A stretch of DNA of 51,898 nucleotides from an archaeon (GCA_043821945.1 JBDRCH010000003.1:1-51898), one strand, 5' to 3'; shown: positions 1,810 through 42,422, counted from the stretch's first letter. Notes: generated by a model not told the origin, from the sequence alone. Translations and numbers: made by a program.

Positions 1810-2778
1810 GTGATTAAAATGGGAAAGAAGAGGGAAATTATCTGGATTTTTTTATTATTGATGATTATCTTAATTCCCGGGGTTCTTGCGGGATTTTCTG
1901 ATTGGTTTAAGAAAGTGACTGGACAAGCATCTACAGAGGGTCCTGTTGATTTTAATATTAGTGTTGGAACTGGAAATGCTCCAACAATAACACAGGTTTG
2001 GAATTGGTCTGGAGCAGTTACATTAAATGATGGTCCAAGCAATACTAACCTAACAATTAATTTTTCTGTTACTGATGCAGATACTGCATCAAACTTAAAA
2101 GATAGTTCTGCCACAATAAATGTTTCAAAGTCAGGAGTAGGAAGAATAAATAATTCTGCTTGCACGAAGTATGAGTCTTCTGGAAATTTTGCAAATTATA
2201 CTTGCAATGTGACAATGTGGTGGTGGGATAGTGATGGGGTGTGGACAATTAACATTTCTATTCAAGATACTCAAGGGAATAAAGCAATTAATGATACAAC
2301 AAATATAACAATAAACATGGTTACAGGCTTTGTTAGTGGTCCAGGTAATTTAACTTTTGGGACTCTTGAACCCGGGACAACAAATCAAACTCCTACTAAT
2401 TGGATAACTCTTAATAACACAGGAAATCAAGATGTAGGTACTCATAATGTGCAATTTAATGCGACAGATCTTAAAGGCGAAACTACTGATACACAAGGAT
2501 TATGGGCTACGAATTTTAGTGTTGGTCCTACTACAGGAGCAGCAAAACCAGAATGTGATTCTGGAGGAAGTACTTCAACAAATATGACTAATGGAACATC
2601 AGGAGATTCTTTTGAGCCAATATATGATTCAGTTCTCATTGCAGGAAATTTTAGTATAAATAATAATGTTACTGGGCAAGAAACTCTTTATGTTTGTATA
2701 CAAAAATTAGGTTTAGGTTTAAGTCAACAATCTTATTCTACTCTTGCTGAAGGAGCATGGACGATTAAAGTTGTATGA
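1810..2778 (+). CDS. Secreted beta-rich surface protein (candidate filament or S-layer-associated subunit)
   Basis: Signal peptide (…IPGVLA), many sequons, no C-terminal anchor, FGTLEPG…NNTGN motif. The start may be the ATG at 1819. Confidence 0.75.
   Translation: MIKMGKKREIIWIFLLLMIILIPGVLAGFSDWFKKVTGQASTEGPVDFNISVGTGNAPTITQVWNWSGAVTLNDGPSNTNLTINFSVTDADTASNLKDSSATINVSKSGVGRINNSACTKYESSGNFANYTCNVTMWWWDSDGVWTINISIQDTQGNKAINDTTNITINMVTGFVSGPGNLTFGTLEPGTTNQTPTNWITLNNTGNQDVGTHNVQFNATDLKGETTDTQGLWATNFSVGPTTGAAKPECDSGGSTSTNMTNGTSGDSFEPIYDSVLIAGNFSINNNVTGQETLYVCIQKLGLGLSQQSYSTLAEGAWTIKVV
2302..2433 (+). repeat. 132-bp near-identical direct repeat, copy 2
   Basis: Matches 754..885. Confidence 0.9.
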
Positions 2779-2813
2779 TAAATTTTTAAACTATATTTGA
2801 TTTAAATAAAAAA

Positions 2814-3371
2814 ATGAAAAAAGAAAAGATAAAAGGGAAATTTGTTTTTGGAATTTTCTTAATTTTGTTTTTATTTTCAATTGTTTTCGTATCTGCTTTT
2901 TCTGTGGGAATGCCTTATATGGAAGATAAAAAATTGTATCTATCTCCAGGAGATATAACTGATCTGGAATTTGTCTTACAAAATAGTGGGGGAATAGAAA
3001 ATATTAATGCTATTGTTAGAATAGTAGAAGGTTCTGAAATAATTGAACGAATTGACACTAATGAAATTTATGTGGTTGTTCCTGGGGAACAGACAAAAGT
3101 AAATTTTAGAATAACTATACCTAGAGATGCTTTATTTGGGAGTAATTATAATATAAAATTAGATTTTAGTTCTGGAGTAGGGGGAGGTTCATTTGCTTTT
3201 GGAAGTGCAATAGAACAAAATTTTGAAGTTATTCTTGGAGAAAAAGTAATGCCCCAATCAGAAGAGGAAGAAGAGACTTCTCCGAGTAATTTATTCCTTT
3301 ATGGGGGAATAGCCTTTGTTTTAATTGGTTTAGTTGTATTTTTTGTAATTAGGAATAGAAAAAATAAGTGA
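2814..3371 (+). CDS. Membrane-anchored single Ig-like-domain surface protein
   Basis: Signal peptide (…FVSA), beta-sandwich-like L.PG…V.PGE pattern, C-terminal TM helix with a basic tail. Confidence 0.75.
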   Translation: MKKEKIKGKFVFGIFLILFLFSIVFVSAFSVGMPYMEDKKLYLSPGDITDLEFVLQNSGGIENINAIVRIVEGSEIIERIDTNEIYVVVPGEQTKVNFRITIPRDALFGSNYNIKLDFSSGVGGGSFAFGSAIEQNFEVILGEKVMPQSEEEEETSPSNLFLYGGIAFVLIGLVVFFVIRNRKNK

Positions 3372-3410
3372 TTTAGACAAATTTAAATATACCTTTTTCT
3401 TAATCTTTTA

Positions 3411-5093
3411 ATGAGGGGGGATTTAATTTTTGTATATGTCTTTTTCTTAATTCTAAGTTTAAATGTTTCAGCAGAAATAACTGGAGAAGCTGTAACCGGA
3501 AAAGCTACTCAACAGAATTTTGGTATAAACATTTCTGTTGTAGTTATTTTTCCTTCGTTGAATTTGGTAAGCCCCGAAAATAAAACTTATATTCAAAATC
3601 AATCAATTTCTTTAGAGTATTCATCAAGTAGTGCTAATCTTATTTGGTATAATATAGATAATGGTGTGAATACAACTTTAAGTTCTAATATTGAATTTTC
3701 TGTTAGCGATGGAAACCATGTTTTAAATATATATGCAAATAATACTAATGGACTTGTGACAAAAAATGTGAGTTTTTTTGTTGATTCTGATTTTTTTGTG
3801 ATTATTGACGATGAATTTGATGATGAAGATGGTGAAAGGGGTTATAATCTAAAAGAGACTATGAAGGGGGAGTCAACTGATCTTTTAGATTATACATACG
3901 AAGATTTACAAAATTTGAGTGGAATTATTTTTGAGCGACCTAATTTTGGAAAAATTGTTTTTAATGAGATTATTAATGTAACTGATGATGATAATCCAGA
4001 AGATAATAAATTGGACCTTGACTCAAATATTAATATATCTTTTAATAGAATCGAGTTAAATTCAACTTCTCTGAATAATTTTAATAAAAGTGCTACTTTA
4101 TATATTTATAATTTATCTTTTTCTGATCCCAGAATTTTAAGAGATGGAGAAATTTGCCCTTCTTTTATTTGCACAAAATTAAGTTATTCTGGAGGAACTT
4201 TAATGTTTAATGTTACTGGATTTAGTGTTTATAGTTCTGAAGAAACTCCTACAAGTGAAATTCCTAGCGGAAGTGGGGGTGGTGGAGGGAGGGGAATTAG
4301 TGTAAAAAAAAATCAACTTGATCTTGATGTGAATAAAATTCTTGTTTCTTTAAAACAAGAAGAAACTACTAAAAAGGAGATCATATTAAGAAATACTGGG
4401 AATAAAAAATTAAAAATAAATTTACAACCTTTGGAAATTGAAGATTTTATTAAGGTTAGTGAAAGTGATTTTGAATTAAATGTGGGAGAATCCAAAAAGA
4501 TAATTTTAGATATTATAGCAGGAGAAGATGTTGTTCCTGAGATGTATTTTGGGAAACTTTTGATAAGGGGAGAAAGTATTGAAAAAGAAGTTTTAATTTT
4601 AATTGAAATTGAATCTAAAAAATCTTTGTTTGATGTTAAATTAGATATTTCTGAAGAATATCTTGAAGTCTTACCAGGAAGTGTTTTGCCACTGGAAATA
4701 TCTCTATACAATTTAGGAAATATTAAAAAAATTGATGTTCTTGCAAAAATGATTCTTTTAAATTCAGAGGGAAAAGAGATAGTTTCTAAATCCAGATCTA
4801 TCGCAATAGAAACTCAAGTATCTTTTATTGAAAAATTTAAAATTCCTGATAATGTGATTCCAGGAGATTATGTAGTTTATTTTAGATTAGATTATGAAGG
4901 AGAAGTTGCAACTGCAACAACTTGGATTTCCGTTATAAGAGAAAAATCAGAGTTATCTAAAATAATTTTCTATATAATAATTTGTTTATTTATTGCAATG
5001 ATAATATTTCTCTTATTTTTTATTTTATATAAGATGAAAAAATATTCTCTGATTTTACCACCTCATAATTTTGGATTATTTGAAGATTCTTGA
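3411..5093 (+). CDS. Membrane-anchored multi-Ig-domain surface protein
   Basis: Signal peptide, Ig-like repeats, GSGGGGG linker, C-terminal TM helix. Confidence 0.75.
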   Translation: MRGDLIFVYVFFLILSLNVSAEITGEAVTGKATQQNFGINISVVVIFPSLNLVSPENKTYIQNQSISLEYSSSSANLIWYNIDNGVNTTLSSNIEFSVSDGNHVLNIYANNTNGLVTKNVSFFVDSDFFVIIDDEFDDEDGERGYNLKETMKGESTDLLDYTYEDLQNLSGIIFERPNFGKIVFNEIINVTDDDNPEDNKLDLDSNINISFNRIELNSTSLNNFNKSATLYIYNLSFSDPRILRDGEICPSFICTKLSYSGGTLMFNVTGFSVYSSEETPTSEIPSGSGGGGGRGISVKKNQLDLDVNKILVSLKQEETTKKEIILRNTGNKKLKINLQPLEIEDFIKVSESDFELNVGESKKIILDIIAGEDVVPEMYFGKLLIRGESIEKEVLILIEIESKKSLFDVKLDISEEYLEVLPGSVLPLEISLYNLGNIKKIDVLAKMILLNSEGKEIVSKSRSIAIETQVSFIEKFKIPDNVIPGDYVVYFRLDYEGEVATATTWISVIREKSELSKIIFYIIICLFIAMIIFLLFFILYKMKKYSLILPPHNFGLFEDS

Positions 5094-5159
5094 TATAATC
5101 TTGAATTTATGTGTGTTTAAATCTCTAGAATAGATATAATTGTTCTACAATTATATAAA

Positions 5160-5231
5160 AGCCTGCAGAGAGATTTGAACTCCCGACCTACTGCTTACAA
5201 GGCAGCCGCTCTGCCACTGAGCTATGCAGGC
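5160..5231 (-). tRNA. tRNA-Thr(TGT)
   Basis: Reverse complement folds into a cloverleaf: GCCTGCA/TGCAGGC acceptor, anticodon loop CTTGTAA, TTCAAAT T-loop. Confidence 0.95.
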
Positions 5232-5267
5232 ATGATACAATTAGATAGAGTTCATTTAAAAGATTTT

Positions 5268-5873
5268 TTATTCTTCTTTTTCTATTTCTTCTTTAGGTTT
5301 AATTGATTTTGTTTTTTCTGAGACTTGTTTTTTATTTTCTAAAAATTTTTCAACTTTCATAATTCTTATTTCGCAGAGTGAAAGAGGGTAGATTTTCTTG
5401 AGCTTTAAACTTAATGTCTTTTGTAAAATATTTTTTAATACTTCATTAAACAATTTTTCAGATTCTTTAGTTTTTACATATTTTATGATTTCTTCTTTTG
5501 ATTTTTCTCTTAATGCCTTTCTTATTGAACGAGGAACTTTTCTACGTGTTATCAAGAAAGGTTTTATTTTTATTTGAGCATCCTTACAATTTGTTGAAAA
5601 TGAATCTTCTATGTAATTTGTGCCTTTTCTTAACATTCTTCTTAGAAAATAAGGCATAAGTTTGATTTGAGTGGGAATTGTAGTGGTTTCTTCATTCTCA
5701 ATCTTTACTTTGAGTTGAATGAGCATACTTTTGCCCCTGAGCATTCTTGTTAGATCATATTCAATATATCTACCTTCTAATTCTTTAGATTCATAGGCTT
5801 GAAGCTGTGTTTGTTTTTTTATAATGGGGATGTCTACTTCAAAAAACTTTTTTTTCTTTTTTGCTTGTGCCAT
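5268..5873 (-). CDS. rps3ae: 30S ribosomal protein S3Ae (eS1)
   Basis: GR..E.DL, Y.RRM.RKGT.YIEDSF and KKIYPL…EIR motifs; adjacent to L44e. Confidence 0.88.
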   Translation of the reverse strand: MAQAKKKKKFFEVDIPIIKKQTQLQAYESKELEGRYIEYDLTRMLRGKSMLIQLKVKIENEETTTIPTQIKLMPYFLRRMLRKGTNYIEDSFSTNCKDAQIKIKPFLITRRKVPRSIRKALREKSKEEIIKYVKTKESEKLFNEVLKNILQKTLSLKLKKIYPLSLCEIRIMKVEKFLENKKQVSEKTKSIKPKEEIEKEE

Positions 5874-5874
5874 T

Positions 5875-6210
5875 TTATTCTTGTAATAATTTTCCTACTC
5901 GTTTATTTCTTCTTCCTTGCCTATATTTTGATTTTTTACATTCTTGGCAAGTGTACATTATATTTGTTTTTTTAGTTGTTTTTGTTTTTCTTTTATTCTT
6001 TGTAATTGCTGGTTTAGAACCCCATTTCCCTTTATTACCTATTCCTCTTCCAAGCCCCCTTAGTTTAGCTCGTGATTTTGAACCTCTTGTCAATGTACCT
6101 CTTTTACCACCTGTTCCGACTATTTTTATTTTTTGTTCTGTTTTTTTATTGCAGTAAGAACAAAATCTTTTTGTTGTTTTAGGAATTTTCATTTTATGTT
6201 TTTGAGACAT
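5875..6210 (-). CDS. rpl44e: 50S ribosomal protein L44e (eL42)
   Basis: MKIPK…FC.YC and KTTKK…Y.C.EC zinc-ribbon pattern. Confidence 0.92.
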   Translation of the reverse strand: MSQKHKMKIPKTTKRFCSYCNKKTEQKIKIVGTGGKRGTLTRGSKSRAKLRGLGRGIGNKGKWGSKPAITKNKRKTKTTKKTNIMYTCQECKKSKYRQGRRNKRVGKLLQE

Positions 6211-6257
6211 CTCATTGGTTTATAAAAGTTTTTATAGTTCTGGTCCCGTAGTTATTT

Positions 6258-6551
6258 ATGAAAAGAGTTAAATTTAGAAAAGGTAGGCAGAGAAAATTCT
6301 TAAAAAGAGTTTTATTTGAATTAAATTGTCCTTCTCTTAGAGCGTTTATTCAGTTCGGATTTGATTTTCCTTATTCCACCTTGAAAAATTATTATTCTGA
6401 AAAAAGACTTTTGCCTTATGAATTTTTCAAAAATCTTTGTTATATTGCTAAGATTGATGAAAAAAATTTAAATTTTGAAATTCTAAATAAAAATTGGGGG
6501 CAGATAAGAGGAGGGCAAATTAGTAAAAGAAATGGTCCTGCGCAGAATTGA
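6258..6551 (+). CDS. Small basic hypothetical protein, possibly HTH DNA-binding
   Basis: 97-aa ORF with YSTLKNY.SEKRLLP and NWGQIRGG motifs; its 3' end overlaps the antisense tRNA-Val. Confidence 0.6.
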   Translation: MKRVKFRKGRQRKFLKRVLFELNCPSLRAFIQFGFDFPYSTLKNYYSEKRLLPYEFFKNLCYIAKIDEKNLNFEILNKNWGQIRGGQISKRNGPAQN

Positions 6552-6604
6552 ACTGCGATTTTTTCCACGTCAAGGAAATGTCTTAACCATTGGACTACAG
6601 GACC
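6533..6604 (-). tRNA. tRNA-Val(GAC)
   Basis: GGTCCTG/CAGGACC acceptor, TTTCC-TTGACGT-GGAAA anticodon arm, CGCAG-TTCAATT-CTGCG T arm. Confidence 0.93.
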
Positions 6605-6607
6605 CTC

Positions 6608-6710
6608 AAGAGAACCTAAGCGGTTCTTTGGAATTTCCCTTCTTGTTCTGGAGAGGCGATTTCTTTAGATGCTTCCTTAGGAAATCACACAAAAACCTGA
6701 AGGTTTTATG
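6608..6710. repeat. Multi-hairpin palindromic element directly upstream of tRNA-Val
   Basis: Hairpins AGAACC-taagc-GGTTCT (6611-6627), GATTTC…GAAATC (6658-6686) and AAAACCT-ga-AGGTTTT (6692-6707). Confidence 0.55.
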
Positions 6711-6762
6711 AAAAGAACTTATGTTTAGAAATATTTAAATATAATGGTTTACCATTAAAGTT

Positions 6763-6960
6763 ATGGTGAGAATCAAATGGACTTTATTCATAATTTATTT
6801 ATTTATAGCATTTTATTTTCTTAATTTAGGATGGGAATTTTTTAAAATACCTGAAGTTATTTCTAATTTTGATAAATGGATTTTGACTATAGGGGCTATT
6901 TTGATTATTTTTGAGGGTTTGAGTCTATTTAGAAGTAAAAAATCAATTAATCTTTTATGA
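6763..6960 (+). CDS. Small two-TM membrane protein
   Basis: Two hydrophobic segments; TATA-like tttaaata about 25 bp upstream. Confidence 0.7.
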   Translation: MVRIKWTLFIIYLFIAFYFLNLGWEFFKIPEVISNFDKWILTIGAILIIFEGLSLFRSKKSINLL

Positions 6961-6992
6961 TTTCTTAGTTATGTTAGTTTTAATTTTGTGAT

Positions 6993-7045
6993 TTACTTAC
7001 TAACTTACTAAGTAACTAACTTATTTATTAAGAAACATTTATATA
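6993..7045 (+). promoter_or_regulatory. Tandem TWAC tetramer array (operator-like) followed by BRE/TATA
   Basis: ttac ttac taac ttac taag taac taac tta (6993-7023), then agaaac and tttatata (7038-7045). Confidence 0.55.
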
Positions 7046-7080
7046 TTCAATTTATTTTATTAGTTAAATTAGAGGTTAAT

Positions 7081-7221
7081 ATGAAAAAGTATTTACTCCT
7101 TATTGAAGATGAGAAACTTTGGGGAAAGTTTAAAGAAATGATCTCAAAAGACATAAACACAGAAGTTCTTGAATTGATAAAAGAAAAAGTTAATTTGGAG
7201 GTTAAAAAAAGTGGAAAGTAG
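7081..7221 (+). CDS. 46-aa ribbon-helix-helix-like regulator (not in the ORF track)
   Basis: Translates to MKKYLLLIEDEKLWGKFKEMISKDINTEVLELIKEKVNLEVKKSGK*. GAGGT RBS upstream. Strand-helix-helix pattern of Arc/CopG type. Overlaps the start of the next gene. Confidence 0.65.
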   Translation: MKKYLLLIEDEKLWGKFKEMISKDINTEVLELIKEKVNLEVKKSGK

Positions 7222-9058
7222 AAAGGCACAGGTTACAATTTTTATATTAATTGCAGTTATTTTGGTGAGTTTGGTTATAGGATTTTTTCTTTTGAAGGAT
7301 AGATTATCGAAAGAAGGACTTCCTACGAGTGTTGAACCTGCTTATAAAAGTTTTTTATCCTGCTTAGAAGAAGAAACTTTAGTAGGAGTGTCTCTTTTAG
7401 AAAGTCAAGCTGGATATATTGAACTACCTAATTTTGAGTTTGGCTCAGAGCATATGCCTTTTGGTTCTCAATTAAATTTTTTAGGAAATCCTATCCCTTA
7501 TTGGTATTATGTTTCTGGAAATAATATACAAAAAGAGCAAGTTCCTTCTAGGAGTAATATGGAAGAACAGCTTGGAAATTTCATAGAGCAGAAGATAAAG
7601 AACTGTGATTTTAGTAGTTATTATGAACAAGGATTTGAGATTAATTTAGGAGATCCTGAGACATCAATTAAAATTAAGAGTAATAAGATTGATGTTAATT
7701 TGAATATGAATATGAATTTTGTTAAAGGAGAAGATAATTCTATAATCAATAGTCATAAAATAACTGTTGATTCTGAATTAGGAAATCTTTATGATTCTGC
7801 AATTAAAATTTATGAAAAAGAACAAGAAGAATTATTCTTAGAAAATTATGCAGTTGATATTTTAAGACTTTATGCACCTGTTGATGGTGTTGAGTTAACC
7901 TGCTCTCCAAAAATTTGGAACGCTGAAGAAATTTTTGATGGATTAGAAGAAGCTATTGAAGCAAATACTCTTGCATTAAAATCAGAGGGAGGGGATTATT
8001 CTTTAAATGAAAAACAAGATGAATATTTCGTTATTGATTTAGATGTGAATGAAGATGTTAGATTTATTAATTCAAGAAATTGGGCACATGGTTTTGAAGT
8101 TAGTCCAAGCGAAGAGAGTGTGTTGATTTCTAAACCAGTAGGAAGTCAACTAGGATTGGGAATTTTAGGTTTTTGTTATGTTCCTTACCATTTTGTTTAC
8201 AATGTTCGATACCCTGTTTTAATTCAGGTTTATAGGAATGAAGAAATTTTCCAATTTCCTTTTGCAGTTGTTATTCAAGGAAATAATCCTCGAGAAGCTT
8301 TAGATGTTAGTGCTGTAGAAGTAGGATTAACTGAATTATGTCAATACAAAAATAATCTTATTGAAGTTAATACTTATGACACTAATTTAAAATTAGTTGA
8401 TTCAGATATTTCTTATGAATGTTTTGGGACTACATGTAGCATTGGAAAAACAGAGAATGGAAAATTGTCTGGAGATTTTCCTCAATGTGCAAATGGATAT
8501 ATTTTAGCAAGATCAGAAGGATTTGATGATGCAAAATATTTGTATTCAACTAATAAGGAAGGAAGTGTAGATATAATCATGAGCAAACTTTATAGAATTG
8601 ATTTAAATTTGAAATTAGATGGAAGAGATTATGGAAAAGATGCTATAATTAGTTTTATTTCAGATAAGAATTCTAAGACTATTATTTATCCTGAAACAAA
8701 AAGTGTTGAGCTTAGCGAAGGCCAGTATGAAATCCAGGTTTCTGTTTATAGAAATTCTTCTATTAGATTAGATGCAACAACACACGAGCAGTGTGTTGAA
8801 ATTCCTAAATCTGGATTAGGGGGATTGTTTGGAATTACTGAAGAAAAATGTTTTGAGATTGATATCCCTAGTCAGGTTGTTTCAAATGCTCTTGCTGGGG
8901 GGGGCAAGGAGAATTATTATGTCTTGGAATCTGAATTAAAAAATTCAAATACTCTTGAAATAAATGCAGAGAGTTTGAATATTCCAAAATCAATTGAAGA
9001 ATTGCAAAATAATTATATCTTATTTGAAAATAATGATTTGGATGTGGTGTTTAAATGA
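7211..9058 (+). CDS. Large protein with a class III (type IV pilin-like) signal peptide
   Basis: MESRKA/QVTIFILIAVILVSL matches the archaeal prepilin-peptidase motif; GGAGGT RBS; ATGA overlap with the next gene. Confidence 0.8.
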   Translation: MESRKAQVTIFILIAVILVSLVIGFFLLKDRLSKEGLPTSVEPAYKSFLSCLEEETLVGVSLLESQAGYIELPNFEFGSEHMPFGSQLNFLGNPIPYWYYVSGNNIQKEQVPSRSNMEEQLGNFIEQKIKNCDFSSYYEQGFEINLGDPETSIKIKSNKIDVNLNMNMNFVKGEDNSIINSHKITVDSELGNLYDSAIKIYEKEQEELFLENYAVDILRLYAPVDGVELTCSPKIWNAEEIFDGLEEAIEANTLALKSEGGDYSLNEKQDEYFVIDLDVNEDVRFINSRNWAHGFEVSPSEESVLISKPVGSQLGLGILGFCYVPYHFVYNVRYPVLIQVYRNEEIFQFPFAVVIQGNNPREALDVSAVEVGLTELCQYKNNLIEVNTYDTNLKLVDSDISYECFGTTCSIGKTENGKLSGDFPQCANGYILARSEGFDDAKYLYSTNKEGSVDIIMSKLYRIDLNLKLDGRDYGKDAIISFISDKNSKTIIYPETKSVELSEGQYEIQVSVYRNSSIRLDATTHEQCVEIPKSGLGGLFGITEEKCFEIDIPSQVVSNALAGGGKENYYVLESELKNSNTLEINAESLNIPKSIEELQNNYILFENNDLDVVFK

Positions 9059-12000
9059 TAAATAAAAAAATAATAAATTTTGGAATTATTTTTTTAATTG
9101 GAATTTTGGTTATTTCTTTAGTTAGTGCAAGTTATTCTCGGGTAAATCCAAATTATGGGGCTTTTGATTCATTTGTTAGAGAGAATCCAATATCTGATAA
9201 AGAAAGATGTGAAGCAGGGCAGGATTTTATTTTACAAATTGCTCCTTTGGGTTGCACTCCTGCTGTTGTAAGAAGTGATCTTCTTGAAGAGCAGAATGTT
9301 CCTGTGTTTTGTCAAGTTGCAGCTACAAAAATTAATCCATTAATTGATGTAGAGGCAATAGAAGGAATTTCTTTTTCAGGACAATATCCTAAAGAAGTTT
9401 CTGGTGTTGGTTTTCATCCTGCGCAAGCAGCTTTAGGTGTTAGTGGTGATTTAAATTCTCCACTTTTGAATAATATTGGTTATGCTGTTATTGTTTTGAA
9501 AAAGCAAGAGAGTGAAAGAGATATGCCTGATTTTGTTTCTGGAAATTTGACTGCTAATTTGAGATATGACATTAAGAATGCTTTTGGAATTGGAAGGGCA
9601 AGCTTTTATCTTCCTGAAATTGAGAATAGTGAATGGGAGAATAGAAAAACTCAGTATAGTTTTTGGCAGGGAAGAGGATATTTGAGAGCAGAAAATATTG
9701 ATAATGATAAAGCAACAATTTCTGTTTATAATGATCTGAAAAAAATTTCTAGTGTAAATTTGGACAAGGGAGAAACTTCTGGAGATATTTATCTTCCTGG
9801 ATTTGATTGTTTGGCTGGGTTAAGGTTGAGATTGGATAGCCTTGAAAATCCAGATAAAAGAGTTAAGTTAGATATTAATGGAGAGATTGTTGAAGTTGCT
9901 GAAGGAGAGAAATTTTTGGAGAATAAATGTTTTGTAAGAAATATTGATAAAAAAGGAATTGTAGAAGAAGTTGAGATCAGATGTGATACAGATGATCAGA
10001 AAAATAAGAGAATTGATTTGAAAGTTAGTCCTAATGTGAAATTAGAAATAGAGGGAGTTAAGCAAACAGAATTTGAGGTGGGGGATATTTTATATCAAGA
10101 TGAAGTTGATTCTATGAGAAATATATTTTTAGGATATGTTGGAAAAGGTAAAGATGGGAAATTATTTGCTATGTTTGCAATGACAACTGCAAAAAGCAAA
10201 GAAGAATATTTGAATTCAATTGATATGAGAATAATAAAAGAAATTGCAGAAGTTGAAGAAAGTTATTATAAAAGGGGGGAAAAAGATCTTGTAACTGAGT
10301 TGAAAAAAGATTTAGCTTTTATGACTATAATTTCTAATGCAATTACAAGGGGGAGTGATTATAGTTATGCAATTTATGAGGGGGGTGATAGTGTGGAAGG
10401 AATATTTAGATTTAGGAATTTTTATGAAATTTTTCTCAAAATAAAAGAGATAATTTTTAAGGATACTTATACTATTAAAAAAATTAAGTTTGTAGGTCTT
10501 GCTGGACCAGAAGATAAATTATCTAAAGATGGATTTAGTGAAAATTACAAAAACGCAAAAGAAGATTATGATAGAGTGACGAGCAGTTTTGGTGGGGAGA
10601 ATTGTGGGGAAATAACTTGCGGTGAAGAAGCATTATATAAGATGATTATCCTTGCGTTTGATAATAATCAAAAAAAGACAACTGTTGATTTGTGTGAAAA
10701 GTTTAATAAAGATTATCCTGAATCTAAAAAGAATTTGAATGAATATTGTAAGGATAAATTAAAGCTTTCAAGTTCTGAGTCTTCAACTCAAGATGTTGTG
10801 ATAAATAATAGGGTTAAGAGAATTTCTTTTGAAGAAATTTATGAGCCAAGTTTTGAGGATTATGGAGCTGTGATTAGTGTGAGTGGAACTAAAGATAGAG
10901 TTTATGATTTCCCTTATAATTTAGAAAAAGGTGAACAAGTTAAACTTTCTGATAATGAATTTTTTGAATTAAAAGAAGTCAATGACGATTATGTTTTAAT
11001 TCATGCAGAGGTTAAGCCAGAAGGAATTGTAGATAAGTTAATAATTCAACAGAAGGATTATAAGATTAAATTAAACAGCTACGAGGTTATTGGAGATGAT
11101 AGATATCAAATTAGATTAGAAAAAATTAATCTTAAAAAATCAGCAAAGGTTTCTGTTATACCAAATGTTAATAATGTTGGTACAACTGCGAGTTTTCCAT
11201 TTAAAGTTGGAATTGAAAAAAGATCTATTCAATTATCTCCTGAAAAAACAAAAGAGAGAATTGGGAATTTAGATGAGACAATTAAAGAATGGGAAGATAA
11301 ATCTAATAAATTAGGAAATGTTGTTAAGGGTTTGAAAGGGGCTTGTTTAGCTACTGGAGCTACATTAACAATTAAGAATTTTATTGAAAATGGTCTTTTT
11401 AGTAGTGGAAAATCAATTGCAAGGCAGAATGTTATGAGGGGTGAAGGAGGGTGGAATTCAAGATGCGCTGATGCTGTTGGAGGTAGTGGGGAATTAGCAA
11501 GCAAAGGATATAAAACAATTAATGAGTGTTTGACTAAAGAATCGTCAAATATAGACGAAGAAGTTGATAAATATTATGGAGTAATGTCTGAACAAAATGA
11601 GGATATAAAAGAATTGCAAAAGGAATGTGAACAAGATTCTGGGATTATTGATAGTTTGTTGGGAGGTAAATCTATTGATACTGATTGTTTTAAGGATAAA
11701 TTAATTTCAGATAGTTATAAGAAAGAGTTGGTAGCAAATTGTGGGGGCAATATTAAAGTTAGTAGTGATAAAGAAGTTCCTTGTTCTGAAATAATTAATA
11801 TGATTGATAAAGATTCTATTGGTGTTGAGCAATTGAGAAGATTGCAGTTAAATTCAAGAGTTGATTCTGATATGGCTAAAAGTCAGTTTGAAAAAGATCT
11901 CAAGGATATTTATGTTAATAATGAGAAGAGAGTTGAGGTTGAAGATATTGCAAATCAATTGGGTCAAAAACCAGAAGATGTGGCTCTTTTTTTGAGAAAA

Positions 12001-15000
12001 GATGCTAAGGAATTAAAGTATACTGGTCAAACTTATGGGAATATTAAGAGTAAAATAGGAATTATTGTGGATTACACAAGAGAGAGAAGTGATAGTGTAA
12101 TTTATCTTGATGATAACACTCCTATACAGACTATCTGGACTTCTGATGGGAAAAAATATGTTGCAGTATTAGATAAAAATGGAGATAAATATGCTATTAG
12201 AAAAAATGGTCTTTATGATTTTAATGGAATTGCTGTTGAAGATGAAGAATTAACTAAGGCAATTTATTTTAAAGAATATGATTCTTCTACTTATGAAAAT
12301 AAATTCAAATCTGTTTCTGGTGAAACAGGTGTTGTTGTGAAGTTTTATGAGACAGATCCTTACAAAGGTCTTCCTGCACTTGTGCCTTTTGATTTGAAAA
12401 ATGGTTGGTATGTTGCAACACAACAGACTCTTCCTGTTTTAGGAAATATAAAACCTTATGATGAATCTGGAAGAGTTACTAGTTTGTGGTTGTGTAATGT
12501 TGGTGATAATGGAGTTGCTGAATTTAAATCTGGAATTGGAGATGATATTTGCAGACAAGTTAATTTAGGAACAGGACAGCCATATGATGTTTTTTCTGGA
12601 TTAGATACAAATGATGCCTCGAAATTTGTTAGATGTGCTGTTGATGCAATTGAAGATGCTTCAAGGCATAAATCAGGAGGGAAAGTTAGCATAAGTACTA
12701 CTTGTGATGGTTCGCATTCTATTAATATTGGAAAGCCTGCTGTTGATATTCCAGAAATGCAGTGCCAGGATTTTATGTCTCCTAAAGAATGTAATATTTT
12801 GTTTAATGTTTGTGATCCTGTTATTTGTCCTTCAAGTAGATGTAATTTAGGAGGAACTTATCATGTTCAAGATGTTGTGCAATCTGGAATAATTGGGAGT
12901 ATTGCATTGTGTTTGCCTAATATTCGGGAGGGAATTTATGTTCCGGTTTGTTTAACTGGAATTCAAGCAGGAATTGATGGTTATTTATCAATTGCAAAAG
13001 CACATAGAGATTGTTTACAGGAAAGTTTAGATACTGGAAAGACTGTTGGAATTTGTGATGAGATTTATTCAATACATCTTTGTGAATTTTTTTGGAGGCA
13101 AGGACTTCCTGTGGCAAAATTAATCTTGCCTAAATTAATTGAATTAGCAATGGGGCAAGGAATTCGTGGAGGAGGAGAATATTTAGGTGTTGCAGAAGCA
13201 TGGGCTAATGCTGATAAGTCTGTAACTTACTTTACTCAATATTATGCTGCAAATTCTTACAAGGCATTTAAAGCAAGAACAGCAGAAGATGTTGGAGGAG
13301 AAGTTTGCAAGAGTTTTGTTTCTGGAGTTTATCCTGAAGGAGGAAATTTATTAGATTCATTAACAGAGCCTGATTCACCTTCTCAATTTCATGGAAGATT
13401 TGATGAGATTCCATTCACAACAGCAACTGTTCCACCTGTTTCGCAGTATAAAGTATTTTATCATATTTATGCAGGAAAAGATTCAGGAGTTTATTATCAA
13501 GTTTATTTAAAGAGTGGTTCAGAGAGTTCATTTTATCAAGACACTTCTTACAGAAAGATTGTTGATTCTGGTTATGTTACAAGGGGGCAATATGTTGATG
13601 AGACAAAGGATTTTACTGCACCTGCTGGTTACAAAGAGATGTGTATTAGAGTTAATGATCAAGAAGAATGTGGGTTTAAGCAGGTTTCAACTTCTTATGC
13701 TGTTAATTATATTAAAGATAAATATATGGAAGATCAGGCAAGTCAGAAAAATATTAAGACTGGAAAAGAATGTATTTCTGGAACTGCGAGTGTTTATAGT
13801 TTAATCTCTCCTAATCTGCAAGAAGGTGTTGATGAAGCTATTAATCCTGCAATTTATGAAAGAGGAATAATTAGAATTTGCGCAACTGATAATCCTGGAA
13901 AAGGAACAGATGCAAAAGCAGGAATGAATGGTTCAAGATGGATTCCTATTGGTTATTGTGATGATCAGAAAATAATATGTTGGCAAGATCAGAATAGTAT
14001 TAAGAATGTTATTAATGATTTAAATATTGAATCTAAAGTTTTATCAGAACAAACAAATAATTATTTAGAAATTTTGGAAAAAGAAGGAAATTATGAAAAG
14101 AAAAAAGTAATTGATAAATTAATTGAGGATATAAATGATGGAAAACTTGGTCCTAAAGAGATAATCAAGAAAATTAGTGATATTATAGGAAGAGTTTTTT
14201 GGAATAATCAAAAAGCGAGATTGTTTTTAGAAAGAGGTAATGCTTATGGGGTGTTGGCTGGGGAAGATAGAAAAGCAAGGGAGCAGGAGAGAAGTTCAGG
14301 AGGAGGTGGGGTTGGAGGTAGTTTTGATGAAGGTGAGATATCTAAGTTAAATGAATGTAGTGATTGTGATAAGTGGGAAGATGGAGTTACTTGTACTGAA
14401 GAATTATGCAACCAGATTGGGGAAAATTTAGATAAGAATTGTCAATACGAAGATTCGTGGATCTCTTTTACTGAAGGTAGTTGTAAAGAAGTATTTTCTT
14501 ATGGCAAAAATGCTGAAGATGAATGTAAGATTTTTTGCGGTGGTTTACAATATAAGATAGAGGATAGTTGTTTAGAGAACTTAGGAGATTTATCTTTTTT
14601 AAAACAAAAGGTAAATCCTCTTGCTGCTCTAAAAACTTGTTGTTGTTATGCAGAAATCAAATCCATTTTCCTAAAGAAGACTGATGGAATTTCTACTAAG
14701 AATCTTCAACAAATTAATGAGCGATATTCTCCTTGTGGAGGTTATTCTTTTTTAATAACCTATGCAGCTAAAAAATATAATATTCCTGATCCCTTGTTTT
14801 TAATGTCTCTTATGATTCATGAATCTTCTCATAATGGAATTTATTGTGATGTGAATGATGATACTGATGAATCTTATGGATTAATGCAATTGACAAAAGG
14901 AACTGTTGAATTTTATTGTGCTGGAAAAATAAATGGAATAAGTAATTTTGATGATATTAAGGGTTCTGGAAATACTAATAATAATATCAACTGCGGAGCT

Positions 15001-15204
15001 AAAATTTTGAGGGATAAGTATGAAGAATTTAAAGATGGAAAACAATTTAGTGGGGCGTGTACTGAGGAATATAAAAAGATTGTCTATGAAGAATGGGCTG
15101 CTGCTTTAAGAGGTTATAATGGTTGGGGGTGTAATGTAAATTATCCTCAGCAAGATAAATTTGTTGATAATGTTCTTGAGATTTATGATTCTTTTGAAAT
15201 TTGA
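9055..15204 (+). CDS. Giant secreted Cys-rich protein with a C-terminal lytic transglycosylase (SLT-like) domain
   Basis: Signal peptide (…LVSA). C-terminal motifs AAKKYNI…LM.H-ES (E1923), SYGLMQ, NI.CGAK.L, W.AALRGYNG and FVDNV. Confidence 0.8.
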   Translation: MINKKIINFGIIFLIGILVISLVSASYSRVNPNYGAFDSFVRENPISDKERCEAGQDFILQIAPLGCTPAVVRSDLLEEQNVPVFCQVAATKINPLIDVEAIEGISFSGQYPKEVSGVGFHPAQAALGVSGDLNSPLLNNIGYAVIVLKKQESERDMPDFVSGNLTANLRYDIKNAFGIGRASFYLPEIENSEWENRKTQYSFWQGRGYLRAENIDNDKATISVYNDLKKISSVNLDKGETSGDIYLPGFDCLAGLRLRLDSLENPDKRVKLDINGEIVEVAEGEKFLENKCFVRNIDKKGIVEEVEIRCDTDDQKNKRIDLKVSPNVKLEIEGVKQTEFEVGDILYQDEVDSMRNIFLGYVGKGKDGKLFAMFAMTTAKSKEEYLNSIDMRIIKEIAEVEESYYKRGEKDLVTELKKDLAFMTIISNAITRGSDYSYAIYEGGDSVEGIFRFRNFYEIFLKIKEIIFKDTYTIKKIKFVGLAGPEDKLSKDGFSENYKNAKEDYDRVTSSFGGENCGEITCGEEALYKMIILAFDNNQKKTTVDLCEKFNKDYPESKKNLNEYCKDKLKLSSSESSTQDVVINNRVKRISFEEIYEPSFEDYGAVISVSGTKDRVYDFPYNLEKGEQVKLSDNEFFELKEVNDDYVLIHAEVKPEGIVDKLIIQQKDYKIKLNSYEVIGDDRYQIRLEKINLKKSAKVSVIPNVNNVGTTASFPFKVGIEKRSIQLSPEKTKERIGNLDETIKEWEDKSNKLGNVVKGLKGACLATGATLTIKNFIENGLFSSGKSIARQNVMRGEGGWNSRCADAVGGSGELASKGYKTINECLTKESSNIDEEVDKYYGVMSEQNEDIKELQKECEQDSGIIDSLLGGKSIDTDCFKDKLISDSYKKELVANCGGNIKVSSDKEVPCSEIINMIDKDSIGVEQLRRLQLNSRVDSDMAKSQFEKDLKDIYVNNEKRVEVEDIANQLGQKPEDVALFLRKDAKELKYTGQTYGNIKSKIGIIVDYTRERSDSVIYLDDNTPIQTIWTSDGKKYVAVLDKNGDKYAIRKNGLYDFNGIAVEDEELTKAIYFKEYDSSTYENKFKSVSGETGVVVKFYETDPYKGLPALVPFDLKNGWYVATQQTLPVLGNIKPYDESGRVTSLWLCNVGDNGVAEFKSGIGDDICRQVNLGTGQPYDVFSGLDTNDASKFVRCAVDAIEDASRHKSGGKVSISTTCDGSHSINIGKPAVDIPEMQCQDFMSPKECNILFNVCDPVICPSSRCNLGGTYHVQDVVQSGIIGSIALCLPNIREGIYVPVCLTGIQAGIDGYLSIAKAHRDCLQESLDTGKTVGICDEIYSIHLCEFFWRQGLPVAKLILPKLIELAMGQGIRGGGEYLGVAEAWANADKSVTYFTQYYAANSYKAFKARTAEDVGGEVCKSFVSGVYPEGGNLLDSLTEPDSPSQFHGRFDEIPFTTATVPPVSQYKVFYHIYAGKDSGVYYQVYLKSGSESSFYQDTSYRKIVDSGYVTRGQYVDETKDFTAPAGYKEMCIRVNDQEECGFKQVSTSYAVNYIKDKYMEDQASQKNIKTGKECISGTASVYSLISPNLQEGVDEAINPAIYERGIIRICATDNPGKGTDAKAGMNGSRWIPIGYCDDQKIICWQDQNSIKNVINDLNIESKVLSEQTNNYLEILEKEGNYEKKKVIDKLIEDINDGKLGPKEIIKKISDIIGRVFWNNQKARLFLERGNAYGVLAGEDRKAREQERSSGGGGVGGSFDEGEISKLNECSDCDKWEDGVTCTEELCNQIGENLDKNCQYEDSWISFTEGSCKEVFSYGKNAEDECKIFCGGLQYKIEDSCLENLGDLSFLKQKVNPLAALKTCCCYAEIKSIFLKKTDGISTKNLQQINERYSPCGGYSFLITYAAKKYNIPDPLFLMSLMIHESSHNGIYCDVNDDTDESYGLMQLTKGTVEFYCAGKINGISNFDDIKGSGNTNNNINCGAKILRDKYEEFKDGKQFSGACTEEYKKIVYEEWAAALRGYNGWGCNVNYPQQDKFVDNVLEIYDSFEI

Positions 15205-15224
15205 TTAATTTTAAAAATATTAAA

Positions 15225-15308
15225 TGCGGAGAGAAGGATTCGAACCCTCGTAGGCACTAAGCCAACAGGTCCTAAGCCTGTCCCGTTTGACCACTCCGGC
15301 ATCTCCGC
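15225..15308 (-). tRNA. tRNA-Leu(TAG)
   Basis: ACAGG-CTTAGGA-CCTGT anticodon arm, long variable arm, TTCGAAT T-loop. Confidence 0.95.
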
Positions 15309-15358
15309 ATAGAATTAATGATTATCTGAGATATAAAAAGGTTTAGAATTACAGAAAA

Positions 15359-34332: not shown

Positions 34333-34515
34333 TTACCATATTTTTAAATTTTTGATAAAAAGTTTTTTTTCAAGAAAGCGTTCTTGCCATTCCTTAAGGA
34401 ATATTTCTGGTATCTTATTATACTCTCTAAGCCCGTATTGTTTGTGGATCATTAAACCTAAATCACTTCTAGTATCGCAATAGTCTCTTTTTTTAAATCT
34501 CCTTCTTGTATGCAT
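34333..34515 (-). CDS. Small hypothetical protein
   Basis: 60-aa ORF downstream of alaS; no motif. Confidence 0.35.
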   Translation of the reverse strand: MHTRRRFKKRDYCDTRSDLGLMIHKQYGLREYNKIPEIFLKEWQERFLEKKLFIKNLKIW

Positions 34516-34557
34516 TCCTTAATCTTTTAAGTTAATGCTTCCTTGTTTAACATTTGT

Positions 34558-42391: not shown

Positions 42392-42422
42392 TCTTTAAAA
42401 ACTATTCATTAGTATTCTTATC

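What the first reader, a model, noticed from the sequence alone, without database searches (positions are those of the whole stretch)
6993..15204. Three-gene operon: RHH-like regulator, pilin-signal protein and giant lytic protein as a candidate contact or invasion apparatus
Seen: 7081..7221, 7211..9058 and 9055..15204 overlap successively (11 bp and 4 bp), share one BRE/TATA at about 7031-7045, and end at a convergent tRNA-Leu. The middle gene has the class III signal RKA/Q followed by a hydrophobic helix. Inference: the pilin-like protein may couple the giant enzyme-bearing protein to a type IV filament or secretion machine, forming a regulated host-attachment and wall-penetration module.
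Basis: partly seen in the sequence, partly recalled or inferred. Interest (0 to 1): 0.75.

Follow-up and report, generated by a model that had tools for sequence, protein, structure and literature searches.

The report
Conserved archaeal surface operon with wall-cutting giant
A tiny, probably host-dependent archaeon carries a widely conserved gene pair, a pilin-signal surface protein and a 2,049-residue secreted giant that ends in an enzyme for cutting bacterial cell walls; the giant family is already in print, its partner and local regulator apparently are not.

Summary
The three ORFs, the 11-nt and 4-nt overlaps, the BRE/TATA at 7030-7045, the convergent tRNA-Leu and the RKA|Q class III signal are all present.

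The two large genes form a lineage-wide pair. The 615-aa protein matched 325 of 401 sampled genomes of the phylum. A giant ORF lay directly downstream in all 60 loci I fetched.

The giant has a conserved core of about 1,740 residues and an exchangeable tail. Here the tail is an SLT lytic transglycosylase with its E-S and GLMQ motifs intact. Relatives carry SLT, M23, M15 or NlpC/P60 tails.

The genome encodes a prepilin peptidase, two pilus ATPases, TadC-like proteins and many small pilins, so neither refutation condition is met.

The 46-aa first gene is not universal (8 of 60 loci, own family only). It always co-occurs with a TTACTNAGTAA palindrome beside the promoter, so it looks like a local autoregulator. 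Sequence tests gave no support for RHH membership.

Physical coupling of the two proteins, and any link to a pilus, remain untested.

The giant family is published (fam00969, Castelle 2021). This scan has already reported the same module on other genomes.

Verdict: real and biologically suggestive, but a further member of a partly known system.

The parts
6993..7015 (.). Two adjacent copies of the palindrome TTACTNAGTAA (6993-7003 with 1 mismatch, 7005-7015 exact). Candidate operator of the 46-aa protein, ending 14 nt upstream of the BRE.
   Evidence: One search gives the positions. The window-wide count of 3 is not above chance (3.9 +/- 2.2 expected). The exact motif occurs once in the 490-kb genome, here. 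It is present at <=1 mismatch upstream in 9 of 9 cases with the small ORF against 1 of 52 without. Alignment of the promoters.
7030..7045 (+). BRE-like AAGAAACA plus TATA box TTTATATA. Candidate operon promoter.
   Evidence: Sequence. The same AAGAAACATTTA[TA]ATA stands at the same place in 5 of the 8 related loci that carry the small ORF (L053, L058, L060, L063 exact, L051 one base off); L065, L066 and L070 have looser versions. Function is inferred from the archaeal promoter consensus (established knowledge).
7081..7221 (+). 46-aa conserved small protein (P0001). Probable DNA-binding autoregulator; an RHH-like beta-alpha-alpha pattern is only inferred.
   Evidence: 19 invariant columns in 9 sequences; Atlas clusters of 249, 354 and 126 members; single copy, always directly upstream of the partner gene.
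7211..9058 (+). 615-aa class III (prepilin-type) signal protein (P0002). Signal MESRKA|Q = residues 1-6 (7211-7228). Hydrophobic helix residues 7-28 (7229-7294). Alpha/beta domain about 42-360 with conserved Cys. Beta-sandwich domains about 380-460 and 461-590.
   Evidence: 8 invariant Cys, Q7 in >=90%; AF2 pLDDT 86.8; transthyretin/CarboxypepD_reg-like sandwich, Z about 10 over about 78 residues.
9055..15204 (+). 2049-aa secreted giant (P0003). N-terminal signal or anchor, residues 1-31. Conserved N1 (27 to about 300), N2 (about 685-840) and core (1091-1740). The core includes a Cys-rich region at about 1230-1440 that is the most widely conserved part.
   Evidence: 31 invariant columns, 15 of them Cys; 56 Cys; the only hydrophobic segment is 1-31.
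14752..15123 (+). C-terminal SLT (GH23-type) lytic transglycosylase domain, residues 1900-2023, with E1923-S1924, GLMQ 1942-1945, NINCG 1977 and YNG 2021. It follows a Gly-rich linker (about residues 1747-1756) and a Cys-rich spacer.
   Evidence: weak alignment to EtgA placing HES on NES and GLMQ on GIMQ; the only SLT match in the genome.
15224..15309 (-). Convergent tRNA-Leu(tag) that bounds the operon.
   Evidence: A tRNA-Leu follows the giant gene in most own-family loci.

Best explanation
This is the local copy of a chromosomal, lineage-wide surface module of Pacearchaeota/Woesearchaeota-type DPANN archaea. Its core is a translationally coupled pair.

The first partner is a 615-aa protein with a prepilin-type (class III) signal. 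I infer that the genome's A24 peptidase cleaves it after RKA. I also infer that its N-terminal hydrophobic helix holds it in the membrane, or possibly in a pilus-like fibre, and that it displays a disulfide-bonded alpha/beta domain on a stalk of beta-sandwich domains.

The second partner is a Sec-exported, Cys-rich 2049-aa giant with no other hydrophobic segment. I infer that it stays at the cell surface through the partner. Its conserved 1,740-residue body carries an exchangeable C-terminal enzyme. Here that enzyme is an SLT lytic transglycosylase, which cuts the glycan strands of bacterial peptidoglycan. The archaeon shows no murein synthesis of its own, so the target is another cell's wall: attachment to, or feeding on, bacteria.

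In this genome and some close relatives the operon is headed by a 46-aa protein. This protein most likely binds the TTACTNAGTAA palindromes beside the BRE/TATA and autoregulates the operon.

Shown: gene order, conservation, motifs, domain identity and presence of the processing machinery. Inferred: cleavage, anchoring, binding between the two proteins, the substrate, and regulation.
For: Pair and coupling:
- The P0002 family has 2272 hits and the P0003 family 1237 hits. The names given are Pacearchaeota or Nanoarchaeota, and the two lists share contig lengths.
- P0002 matched 325 of 401 sampled genomes of the phylum and 27 of 27 in the own family.
- A giant-core homologue lies directly downstream in 47 of 47 loci with a close P0002 match.
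- In the 13 distant loci a 1520-2227-aa ORF lies directly downstream in 13 of 13. Seven of these match the core profile at E 4e-13 to 4e-6.
- The ATGA overlap is present in 38 of 60 evaluable cases.

Core gene, not an island:
- GC is 0.311 against 0.298 for the genome.
- The tRNA-Val, S3Ae, tRNA-Leu, TFB, S8e and LSM neighbours recur (TFB in 31 of 59 loci).

Class III signal:
- [KR]-[GAS]-Q followed by a hydrophobic run is visible in nearly all 60 N-termini. Q7 is conserved in >=90% of sequences.
- Machinery is present in the genome. Peptidase_A24 was found in 387 of 401 genomes.

Extracellular location:
- P0002 has 8 invariant Cys. P0003 has 56 Cys and a single N-terminal hydrophobic segment.

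Enzyme:
- SLT scores above the Pfam cut-off. E-S and G-L are invariant in 12 of 12 SLT tails.
- Of 44 tails scanned, 11 carry SLT, 2 M15_4, 1 M23 and 1 NlpC/P60.
- No Mur ligase was found in the genome, which is 77.8% complete. SLT rang only in bacterial control genomes.

Regulator:
- The palindrome co-occurs with the small ORF in 9 of 9 cases against 1 of 52 without it, and occurs once in the genome.
- Other lineages have a true RHH (L086) or a MarR-like wHTH (L080) at the same position.

Literature: passages of PMC8204110 and PMC9723730 propose the same role for the giant.
Against: - There is no direct evidence that the two proteins bind, that the signal is cleaved, that the SLT is active, or that the genes are expressed.
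- P0002 has no Pfam pilin or class III signal hit at E<=0.1.
- 27 of 44 relatives' tails have no recognised domain at E<=1e-4, and one carries a phosphoesterase. Wall cutting is therefore not shown to be the function of the whole family.
- P0002 was not found with this query in 76 of 401 genomes.
- The conserved giant core has no recognisable fold (pLDDT 68.8, best Z 7.3), so what the body does is unknown.
- Cleavage of the giant's signal peptide (VSA|SY) is my reading only. If it is uncleaved, the giant anchors itself.
- Kin are not independent, so the 9 of 9 against 1 of 52 motif association may partly reflect shared descent of one promoter cassette.
- The tallies include five or six unpublished genomes (G243, G244, G322, G333, G396; also G360).
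Confidence: 0.6

Rival explanations
1. Pilus-coupled device. The 615-aa protein is a modular minor or tip pilin that is built into a type IV pilus-like fibre. It presents the giant at the fibre's end, or the pilus machine exports the giant.
For: There is a class III signal with Q at +1, as in the small pilin-like genes of the same genome. Complete pilus machinery is present. Large pilins with grafted domains and tip-located adhesins are known in bacterial type IV systems (established knowledge, recalled).
Against: The operon lies on contig C3, away from both pilus clusters on C2 and C8. The AF2 model shows the transmembrane helix (5-31) separated from the next helix (42-65) by a low-confidence Pro/Gly linker, unlike the continuous alpha-1 helix of filament-forming pilins. 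The giant has its own Sec-type signal. Class III signals also occur on non-filament surface proteins in archaea (established knowledge).
Confidence: 0.2
2. Structural envelope. The pair is a two-component surface layer analogous to SlaA/SlaB (large outer protein plus smaller membrane-anchored stalk). The enzyme tail is an add-on.
For: The pair is near-universal in the sample (325 of 401), single copy, lies among housekeeping genes and is translationally coupled. The partner has beta-sandwich stalk domains that also match SlaB (8qox_B, Z 9.0, 81 residues).
Against: The SlaB match is a generic sandwich tied with dozens of unrelated rows. The anchor is N-terminal, not C-terminal. The giant is Cys-rich (56 Cys) and carries exchangeable peptidoglycan hydrolases, which is unusual for lattice proteins. 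P0002 was not found in 76 of 401 genomes.
Confidence: 0.12
3. Released antibacterial weapon. The giant is secreted free into the medium as a bacteriolytic enzyme for competition or nutrient scavenging, and the 615-aa protein only helps its export or folding.
For: Archaeal peptidoglycan hydrolases that kill bacteria are documented, and are prominent in Nanoarchaeota (passages of PMC12352652). The tails are polymorphic. The giant has no anchor other than its N-terminal signal.
Against: A conserved body of 1,740 residues is far more than a diffusible lysin needs. Strict coupling to a membrane-anchored partner argues for retention at the cell. Many tails lack a recognisable hydrolase.
Confidence: 0.08

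Closest known systems
[quoted passage not shown] 2021, PMC8204110; also the 'large lytic murein transglycosylase' of Vigneron et al. 2022, PMC9723730)
   Same: A very large secreted protein in the same lineages with an SLT/GH23 domain, proposed there to bind or degrade bacterial walls (passages read).
   Different: In the passages I read, those papers describe the giant only. The words 'pilin' and 'pili' do not occur in either main text. The conserved partner gene, the translational coupling, the exchangeable non-SLT tails and the head regulators are not mentioned. The partner may be among the 51 unnamed families of their Module 98; I did not read Supplementary Table 3.
Specialised lytic transglycosylases of secretion and pilus machines (EtgA of the EPEC type III system, PDB 8urn/4xp8; VirB1-type enzymes)
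   Same: EtgA is the best, though weak, solved-structure match of the tail (E 0.049). The alignment places HES on the catalytic NES and GLMQ on GIMQ. Both are SLT-family enzymes tied to a surface apparatus.
   Different: Those enzymes are small proteins that open the producer's own wall. Here the domain ends a 2049-aa protein in an organism with no detected murein synthesis, so the wall must belong to another cell.
Archaeal class III signal (prepilin-like) surface proteins processed by PibD/EppA-type A24 peptidases, including non-filament substrates
   Same: A short basic leader, [KR]-[GA]|Q, a hydrophobic helix, and a cognate A24 peptidase in the genome.
   Different: At 615 aa with a novel disulfide-rich ectodomain it is far larger than structural pilins. 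It has no Pfam pilin hit. Cleavage and assembly are untested.
Sulfolobus SlaA/SlaB two-component S-layer
   Same: Adjacent genes for a large anchorless outer protein and a smaller stalk protein with beta-sandwich domains.
   Different: The anchor is at the opposite end, there is no coiled coil, the giant is Cys-rich with enzyme tails, and the structural match is generic.
Small plasmid and phage ribbon-helix-helix autorepressors
   Same: A protein of about 45 aa encoded first in its operon, next to palindromic repeats at its own promoter.
   Different: There is no sequence or profile match to any RHH family or structure. The fold was not modelled here.

Membership tests
fam00969-type giant murein-like transglycosylase proteins of Pacearchaeota/Woesearchaeota | Very large (up to about 3000 aa) protein encoded in Pacearchaeota/Woesearchaeota genomes | tested here: met
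   The protein is 2049 aa. The window is archaeal and DPANN-like (TFB, S3Ae, S8e, tRNA intron endonuclease). Homologues are named Pacearchaeota or Nanoarchaeota.
fam00969-type giant murein-like transglycosylase proteins of Pacearchaeota/Woesearchaeota | [quoted passage not shown] | tested here: met
   PF01464 at residues 1900-2023, 30.7 bits against a cut-off of 21.3. Found again by the genome search.
fam00969-type giant murein-like transglycosylase proteins of Pacearchaeota/Woesearchaeota | Clusters with the authors' family members | not testable with these tools
   The family's sequences were not on hand, and I did not read the paper's supplements.
SLT / GH23 family lytic transglycosylases | Catalytic Glu in an E-S motif | tested here: met
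   E1923-S1924. It aligns to the E of EtgA's NES. E-S is invariant in 12 of 12 SLT tails.
SLT / GH23 family lytic transglycosylases | GLMQ and AYNxG-type motifs | tested here: met
   GLMQ at 1942 and YNG at 2021. G-L is invariant in 12 of 12. The Y-N position is not in all rows of the alignment. The motif names are recalled knowledge.
SLT / GH23 family lytic transglycosylases | Cleaves the MurNAc-GlcNAc bond of peptidoglycan | not testable with these tools
   This needs an enzyme assay.
Archaeal class III signal (type IV prepilin-like) proteins | Short basic leader, [KR]-[GA] cleavage motif, then a hydrophobic stretch of about 20 residues | tested here: met
   MESRKA|QVTIFILIAVILVSLVIGFFLL. 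Hydropathy peak of 3.32 over residues 3-33. The motif is conserved across the 60 loci.
Archaeal class III signal (type IV prepilin-like) proteins | Cognate A24 prepilin peptidase encoded in the genome | tested here: met
   C2:34345-35187, PF01478 at 48.7-51.9 bits.
Archaeal class III signal (type IV prepilin-like) proteins | Match to a curated pilin or class III signal family | tested here: inconclusive
   There was no Pfam, NCBIfam or PHROG family at E<=0.1 to 1. Such short N-terminal models often miss.
Archaeal class III signal (type IV prepilin-like) proteins | Pilin fold (long N-terminal helix packed on a sheet) and assembly into a fibre | tested here: inconclusive
   In the AF2 model, helix 5-31 is followed by a low-confidence break at 30-41 and then helix 42-65. 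The N-terminal domain was barely tested by the fold searches. Assembly is not testable.
Ribbon-helix-helix (RHH) DNA-binding proteins (for the 46-aa protein) | Sequence or profile similarity to an RHH family or solved RHH structure | tested here: not met
   There was no Pfam hit for P0001. None of the 9 family members hit an RHH family. The profile search against the PDB gave no RHH chain at E<=10. hhalign against the true RHH of L086 gave probability 5.6%.
Ribbon-helix-helix (RHH) DNA-binding proteins (for the 46-aa protein) | Beta-alpha-alpha fold forming a dimer | not tested
The pattern of residues suggests it, but that is inference only.
Ribbon-helix-helix (RHH) DNA-binding proteins (for the 46-aa protein) | Palindromic or repeated operator at its own promoter | tested here: met
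   TTACTNAGTAA copies at 6993-7015. They co-occur with the ORF in 9 of 9 cases against 1 of 52 without it.
SlaA/SlaB-type two-component S-layer | Stalk protein with a C-terminal membrane anchor and coiled coil | tested here: not met
   The only hydrophobic segment of P0002 is N-terminal. The C-terminal half is beta-sandwich.

The most novel reading that the evidence does not exclude
The pair is the universal host-contact organelle of this archaeal class. A prepilin-anchored stalk holds a giant whose invariant, Cys-rich, hydrophobic-helical centre (about residues 1230-1440) is the only part shared even with the most distant giants and has no known fold. After the exchangeable tail enzyme has opened the wall, this centre inserts into the envelope of a bacterial host and creates the bridge through which the archaeon feeds. 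The tail type would then report the host's wall type, which would make the unknown hosts of Pacearchaeota and Woesearchaeota predictable from genomes.
Probability: 0.12. Interest if true: 0.85.

Novelty: new variant of a known kind. Interest (0 to 1): 0.5.

Why it matters
Pacearchaeota and Woesearchaeota are among the most widespread uncultivated archaea, and their hosts are unknown. The only published hint that they engage bacteria is the SLT domain on these giants.

Three results here turn that hint into a defined target. The giant is half of a strictly coupled, near-universal pair with a prepilin-type partner. The pair sits among housekeeping genes. Its tail is a swappable set of peptidoglycan hydrolases (SLT, M23, M15, NlpC/P60).

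These results suggest direct experiments:
- assay the tail on bacterial sacculi;
- test cleavage of the partner by the A24 peptidase;
- test binding between the two proteins;
- localise both on cells in enrichments.

If tail type tracks host wall chemistry, host range could be read from metagenomes. The small gene with its palindrome is also a compact, testable example of archaeal operon autoregulation.

Tried and rejected
- Complex prediction of P0002 residues 36-615 with giant residues 27-420, each as an alignment, scored 0.13 against a mark of 0.32: no verdict. Only this one segment of the giant was tried.
- RNA evidence: no RNA holder is listed.
- Fold searches for P0002:
  - Foldseek against the PDB gave TM <= 0.15.
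  - VIA-wide matched only the 378-461 sandwich.
  - BFVD gave TM <= 0.19, generic sandwiches of phage tail or baseplate proteins.
  - The N-terminal alpha/beta domain therefore remains effectively untested.
- Giant core: the model is weak (pLDDT 68.8, pTM 0.30). The conserved Cys-rich part scores 30-45. The best VIA Z was 7.3 and BFVD gave nothing.
- NCBIfam and PHROGs gave nothing usable for the three proteins.
- phmmer of the tail against the PDB at E<=0.01 gave nothing.
- The sigma-70 and terminator scan is not informative for an archaeon and showed no excess (37 found against 41.7 expected).
- Mobile island or viral origin is rejected. GC equals the genome's, the housekeeping flanks are conserved, and there are no viral family or fold matches.
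- The window-wide count of the palindrome is not above chance (3 found against 3.9 expected). Only its position and its co-occurrence with the small ORF carry weight.
- Peptidase_A24 is near-universal (387 of 401 genomes), so it cannot discriminate carriers from non-carriers.
- One notebook-index query failed on a malformed word and was not repeated.
- Literature searches for a published link between these giants and pilins found none: 'DPANN'+'prepilin'+'giant' gave 1 unrelated paper; 'Woesearchaeota'+'lytic transglycosylase'+'pili' gave 0; 'Pacearchaeota'+'type IV pili'+'peptidoglycan' gave 0.

Full report
**The observation**

The three reading frames are exactly as described: 7081-7221 (46 aa), 7211-9058 (615 aa, GTG start) and 9055-15204 (2049 aa) on the + strand. 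They overlap by 11 nt and by 4 nt (ATGA). A tRNA-Leu(tag) lies convergent at 15224-15309.

The upstream sequence shows several signals:
- AAGAAACA-TTTATATA at 7030-7045 fits the archaeal BRE/TATA consensus.
- Shine-Dalgarno-like GAGGT (7072-7076) precedes the first start.
- GGAGGT (7197-7202) precedes the second start.

The 615-aa protein begins (M)ESRKA|QVTIFILIAVILVSLVIGFFLL.

Pfam annotation of 44 other ORFs shows an archaeal, DPANN-type genome. It finds TFIIB, ribosomal S3Ae and S8e, LSM, tRNA-intron endonuclease, TFE and deoxyhypusine synthase. The assembly holds 490 kb in 14 contigs and is 77.8% complete. The window is contig C3.

**The two large genes are a conserved pair**

The 615-aa protein has 2272 database relatives. 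The best 120 are all 586-642 aa and 60-74% identical. Where a name is given it is Pacearchaeota, Nanoarchaeota or 'archaeon'.

The giant has 1237 relatives. Most align over the first 85% or so of the query.

In a sample of 401 genomes of the phylum, the 615-aa protein matched in 325, and in 27 of 27 of the own family. That tally includes five genomes flagged unpublished.

I fetched 60 loci from that list:
- 24 of the 27 own-family genomes. I dropped two whose match lies at a contig edge and one with a weak match.
- 2 genomes of the same order.
- 34 genomes that I picked from other families among the better matches. This is not a random draw.

Synteny in those loci:

| Loci | Test | Result |
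|---|---|---|
| L051-L097 (47) | BLAST-detectable giant-core homologue directly downstream | 47 of 47 |
| L098-L110 (13, most distant) | 1520-2227-aa ORF directly downstream | 13 of 13 |
| L098-L110 (13) | Match to a profile of the core | 7 of 13, E 4e-13 to 4e-6 |

In the distant loci the core profile always matches the same Cys-rich stretch.

The 4-nt ATGA overlap recurs in 38 of 60 evaluable cases, and most others lie within a few bases.

The operon's GC content (0.311) equals the genome's (0.298). Its flanks recur in relatives: tRNA-Val, S3Ae, tRNA-Leu, TFB, S8e and LSM, with TFB within 31 of 59 loci. It is therefore a core chromosomal gene pair, not an island.

The genome has one copy of each gene.

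**The 615-aa protein**

The N-terminal motif [KR]-[GAS]-Q-[VI]-T-x-F-[IV]-I is visible in nearly all 60 loci, including the most distant. In a 67-sequence alignment Q7 is at least 90% conserved and eight cysteines are invariant. This points to an extracellular, disulfide-bonded protein.

AlphaFold2 with that alignment gives mean pLDDT 86.8 and pTM 0.56:
- a hydrophobic helix at 5-31;
- a low-confidence Pro/Gly linker;
- an alpha/beta domain at about 42-360;
- beta-sandwich domains at about 380-460 and 461-590.

Only the 378-461 sandwich finds clear structural relatives. It is of the transthyretin/CarboxypepD_reg type, with Z about 10, rmsd about 2 Å and about 78 residues aligned. Global matches are absent: TM <= 0.15 against the PDB and <= 0.19 against viral models. 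The ESM Atlas finds only its own family. There is no Pfam, NCBIfam or PHROG family.

**The pilus machinery**

Contig C8 carries:
- five small pilin-like genes (2351-5267);
- a T2SSE ATPase (5269-6834);
- two T2SSF proteins (7033-9268);
- two more pilin-like genes.

Contig C2 carries:
- a second T2SSE ATPase;
- a run of small class III-signal genes;
- Peptidase_A24 (34345-35187).

Peptidase_A24 was found in 387 of 401 genomes of the phylum sample. It is compatible with the reading but cannot discriminate carriers from non-carriers.

**The giant**

Its only hydrophobic segment is residues 1-31, and it has 56 cysteines. Cleavage after VSA is my reading only.

Three blocks are conserved: N1 (27 to about 300), N2 (about 685-840) and the core (1091-1740). 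A Gly-rich linker at about 1747-1756 separates this body from the tail.

The tail holds the only Pfam domain, SLT at 1900-2023 (30.7 bits against a cut-off of 21.3). It contains E1923-S, GLMQ 1942, NINCG 1977 and YNG 2021.

The best solved-structure match is weak: EtgA, the lytic transglycosylase of a type III secretion system (E 0.049). Its alignment places HES on the catalytic NES and GLMQ on GIMQ.

Across the 12 SLT tails I aligned, E-S and G-L are invariant.

Domains found in the 44 tails of relatives scanned:

| Tail domain | Number of 44 | Loci |
|---|---|---|
| SLT | 11 | one also carries DUF2272 + GDSL lipase (L083), one also CAP (L057) |
| Peptidase_M15_4 | 2 | L078, L090 |
| Peptidase_M23 | 1 | L073 |
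| NlpC/P60 | 1 | L094 |
| Metallophosphoesterase | 1 | L079 |
| TSP3 repeat | 1 | L097 |
| Nothing at E<=1e-4 | 27 | |

BLAST adds two more SLT-like tails, L055 and L088. Among the 120 listed database relatives, 26 carry PF01464 by my count. Others carry PF01832, PF13365, PF07759, PF04536 or PF12799.

Every recognised catalytic type except the phosphoesterase and lipase acts on bacterial peptidoglycan. The genome shows no Mur ligase (77.8% complete). This SLT is its only SLT, and in the control genomes the SLT family rang only in bacteria.

The conserved core could not be explained. The model has pLDDT 68.8 and pTM 0.30. The invariant Cys-rich helical part scores 30-45. The best structural Z was 7.3.

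**The 46-aa gene**

It is real and strongly conserved where present: 19 invariant columns among 9 sequences, while the partner proteins drop to 40% identity. The Atlas holds clusters of 249, 354 and 126 such proteins.

It is not part of the universal unit:
- It heads the operon in 8 of the 60 loci, all in the own family.
- In a separate sample of 61 genomes of the order it was found in 6 (5 of 19 own-family genomes, 0 of 41 others). Each had a single copy directly upstream of the partner gene.

Other lineages place other small genes at that spot (read from the translations):
- a roughly 70-aa two-helix membrane protein (7 loci);
- a roughly 63-aa winged-helix protein (6 loci). L080 matches MarR at E 5e-5, just under the cut-off;
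- in L086, a true RHH. It matches ParG at 24.0 bits against a cut-off of 21.4.

For the 46-aa family itself, every sequence test for RHH failed:
- Pfam;
- a profile search of the PDB;
- hhalign against the L086 RHH, probability 5.6%.

The regulator reading rests on the DNA. All eight related promoters and the window carry copies of the palindrome TTACTNAGTAA just upstream of a conserved AAGAAACATTTA[TA]ATA.

| Palindrome within 330 nt upstream | Cases with the small ORF | Cases without it |
|---|---|---|
| <=1 mismatch | 9 of 9 | 1 of 52 |
| Exact | 6 of 9 | 0 of 52 |

The exact motif occurs once in the whole 490-kb genome, at 7005-7015. The window-wide count at <=1 mismatch is not above chance (3 found against 3.9 expected). 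The nine cases are also kin, so the association could partly be shared descent of one cassette.

**Mechanism**

I commit to the following, at about 0.6. The pair is a cell-surface module. A prepilin-type anchored stalk protein retains a secreted giant, and the giant's exchangeable tip enzyme attacks the wall of a bacterial neighbour or host. A local small autoregulator sits at the head of the operon in this lineage.

Rival readings:
- Direct incorporation into a pilus is possible but less likely (about 0.2). The operon is unlinked to the pilus clusters, the helix is followed by a flexible linker, and the giant has its own Sec signal.
- A structural S-layer-like role is possible (about 0.12).
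- A freely released lysin is possible (about 0.08).

**What is known**

The giant family is in print as fam00969, 'up to 3,000 aa ... murein-like lytic transglycosylase domain', specific to Woesearchaeota and Pacearchaeota (PMC8204110, abstract and passages). It appears as 'large lytic murein transglycosylase' in PMC9723730 (passages). It is also cited in PMC10936187, PMC11537232 and PMC12352652 (passages).

Neither of the first two main texts contains 'pilin' or 'pili'. Three full-text searches for such a link found nothing relevant. I did not read their supplements.

Earlier agents of this scan reported the same module on at least seven other genomes. I used their notes as leads and re-tested the claims above on this locus.

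Noticed in passing
own genome contig C1:2439-4952 (locus L113), minus strand: A miniature of the module. A 260-aa protein has the same KRGQVTIF class III N-terminus and matches the N-terminal domain profile of the 615-aa family (E 3e-28). It is followed by a 92-aa ORF and a 495-aa secreted, very Cys-rich protein that matches neither giant profile.
   Followed up: partly
loci L052, L054, L055, L057, L059, L061, L068; L080, L084, L085, L088, L089, L095; L086; L077: The gene at the head of the operon is swapped between lineages. It is a roughly 70-aa two-helix membrane protein, a roughly 63-aa MarR-like winged-helix protein, a true 43-aa RHH (L086) or a zinc-ribbon-like protein (L077). Only L052, L080 and L086 were checked against Pfam.
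   Followed up: partly
window 34558-36307, minus strand: Alanyl-tRNA synthetase appears as two overlapping ORFs. One is 366 aa with the catalytic part and one is 267 aa with the rest plus tRNA_SAD. The overlap is about 155 nt. This is a split gene or a frameshift.
   Followed up: no
window 28900-31332, + strand: The leucyl-tRNA synthetase matches PF13603 (Leucyl-tRNA synthetase editing domain) at E 1.6e-68. As I recall, this editing-domain type marks the bacterial form of the enzyme, so the gene may be of bacterial type in an archaeal genome. Its origin was not examined.
   Followed up: no
window 41348-43451, + strand: A DisA-type diadenylate cyclase (DAC plus DisA linker) lies directly next to a DHH/DHHA1 phosphoesterase. 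This is a possible pair for making and breaking c-di-AMP.
   Followed up: no
window 45306-45593, minus strand: A 95-aa ORF matches only the last third of the RNase_H_2 model (positions 109-164 of 165). It is probably a gene remnant or has a mis-called start.
   Followed up: no
window 9055+3687 to 9055+4320 (about 12742-13374), residues about 1230-1440 of the giant: This is the most widely conserved stretch of the whole family. It is Cys-rich with small-residue-rich hydrophobic helices. It is the only part detectable in the most distant giants, yet it is modelled at pLDDT 30-45 and has no structural match.
   Followed up: partly
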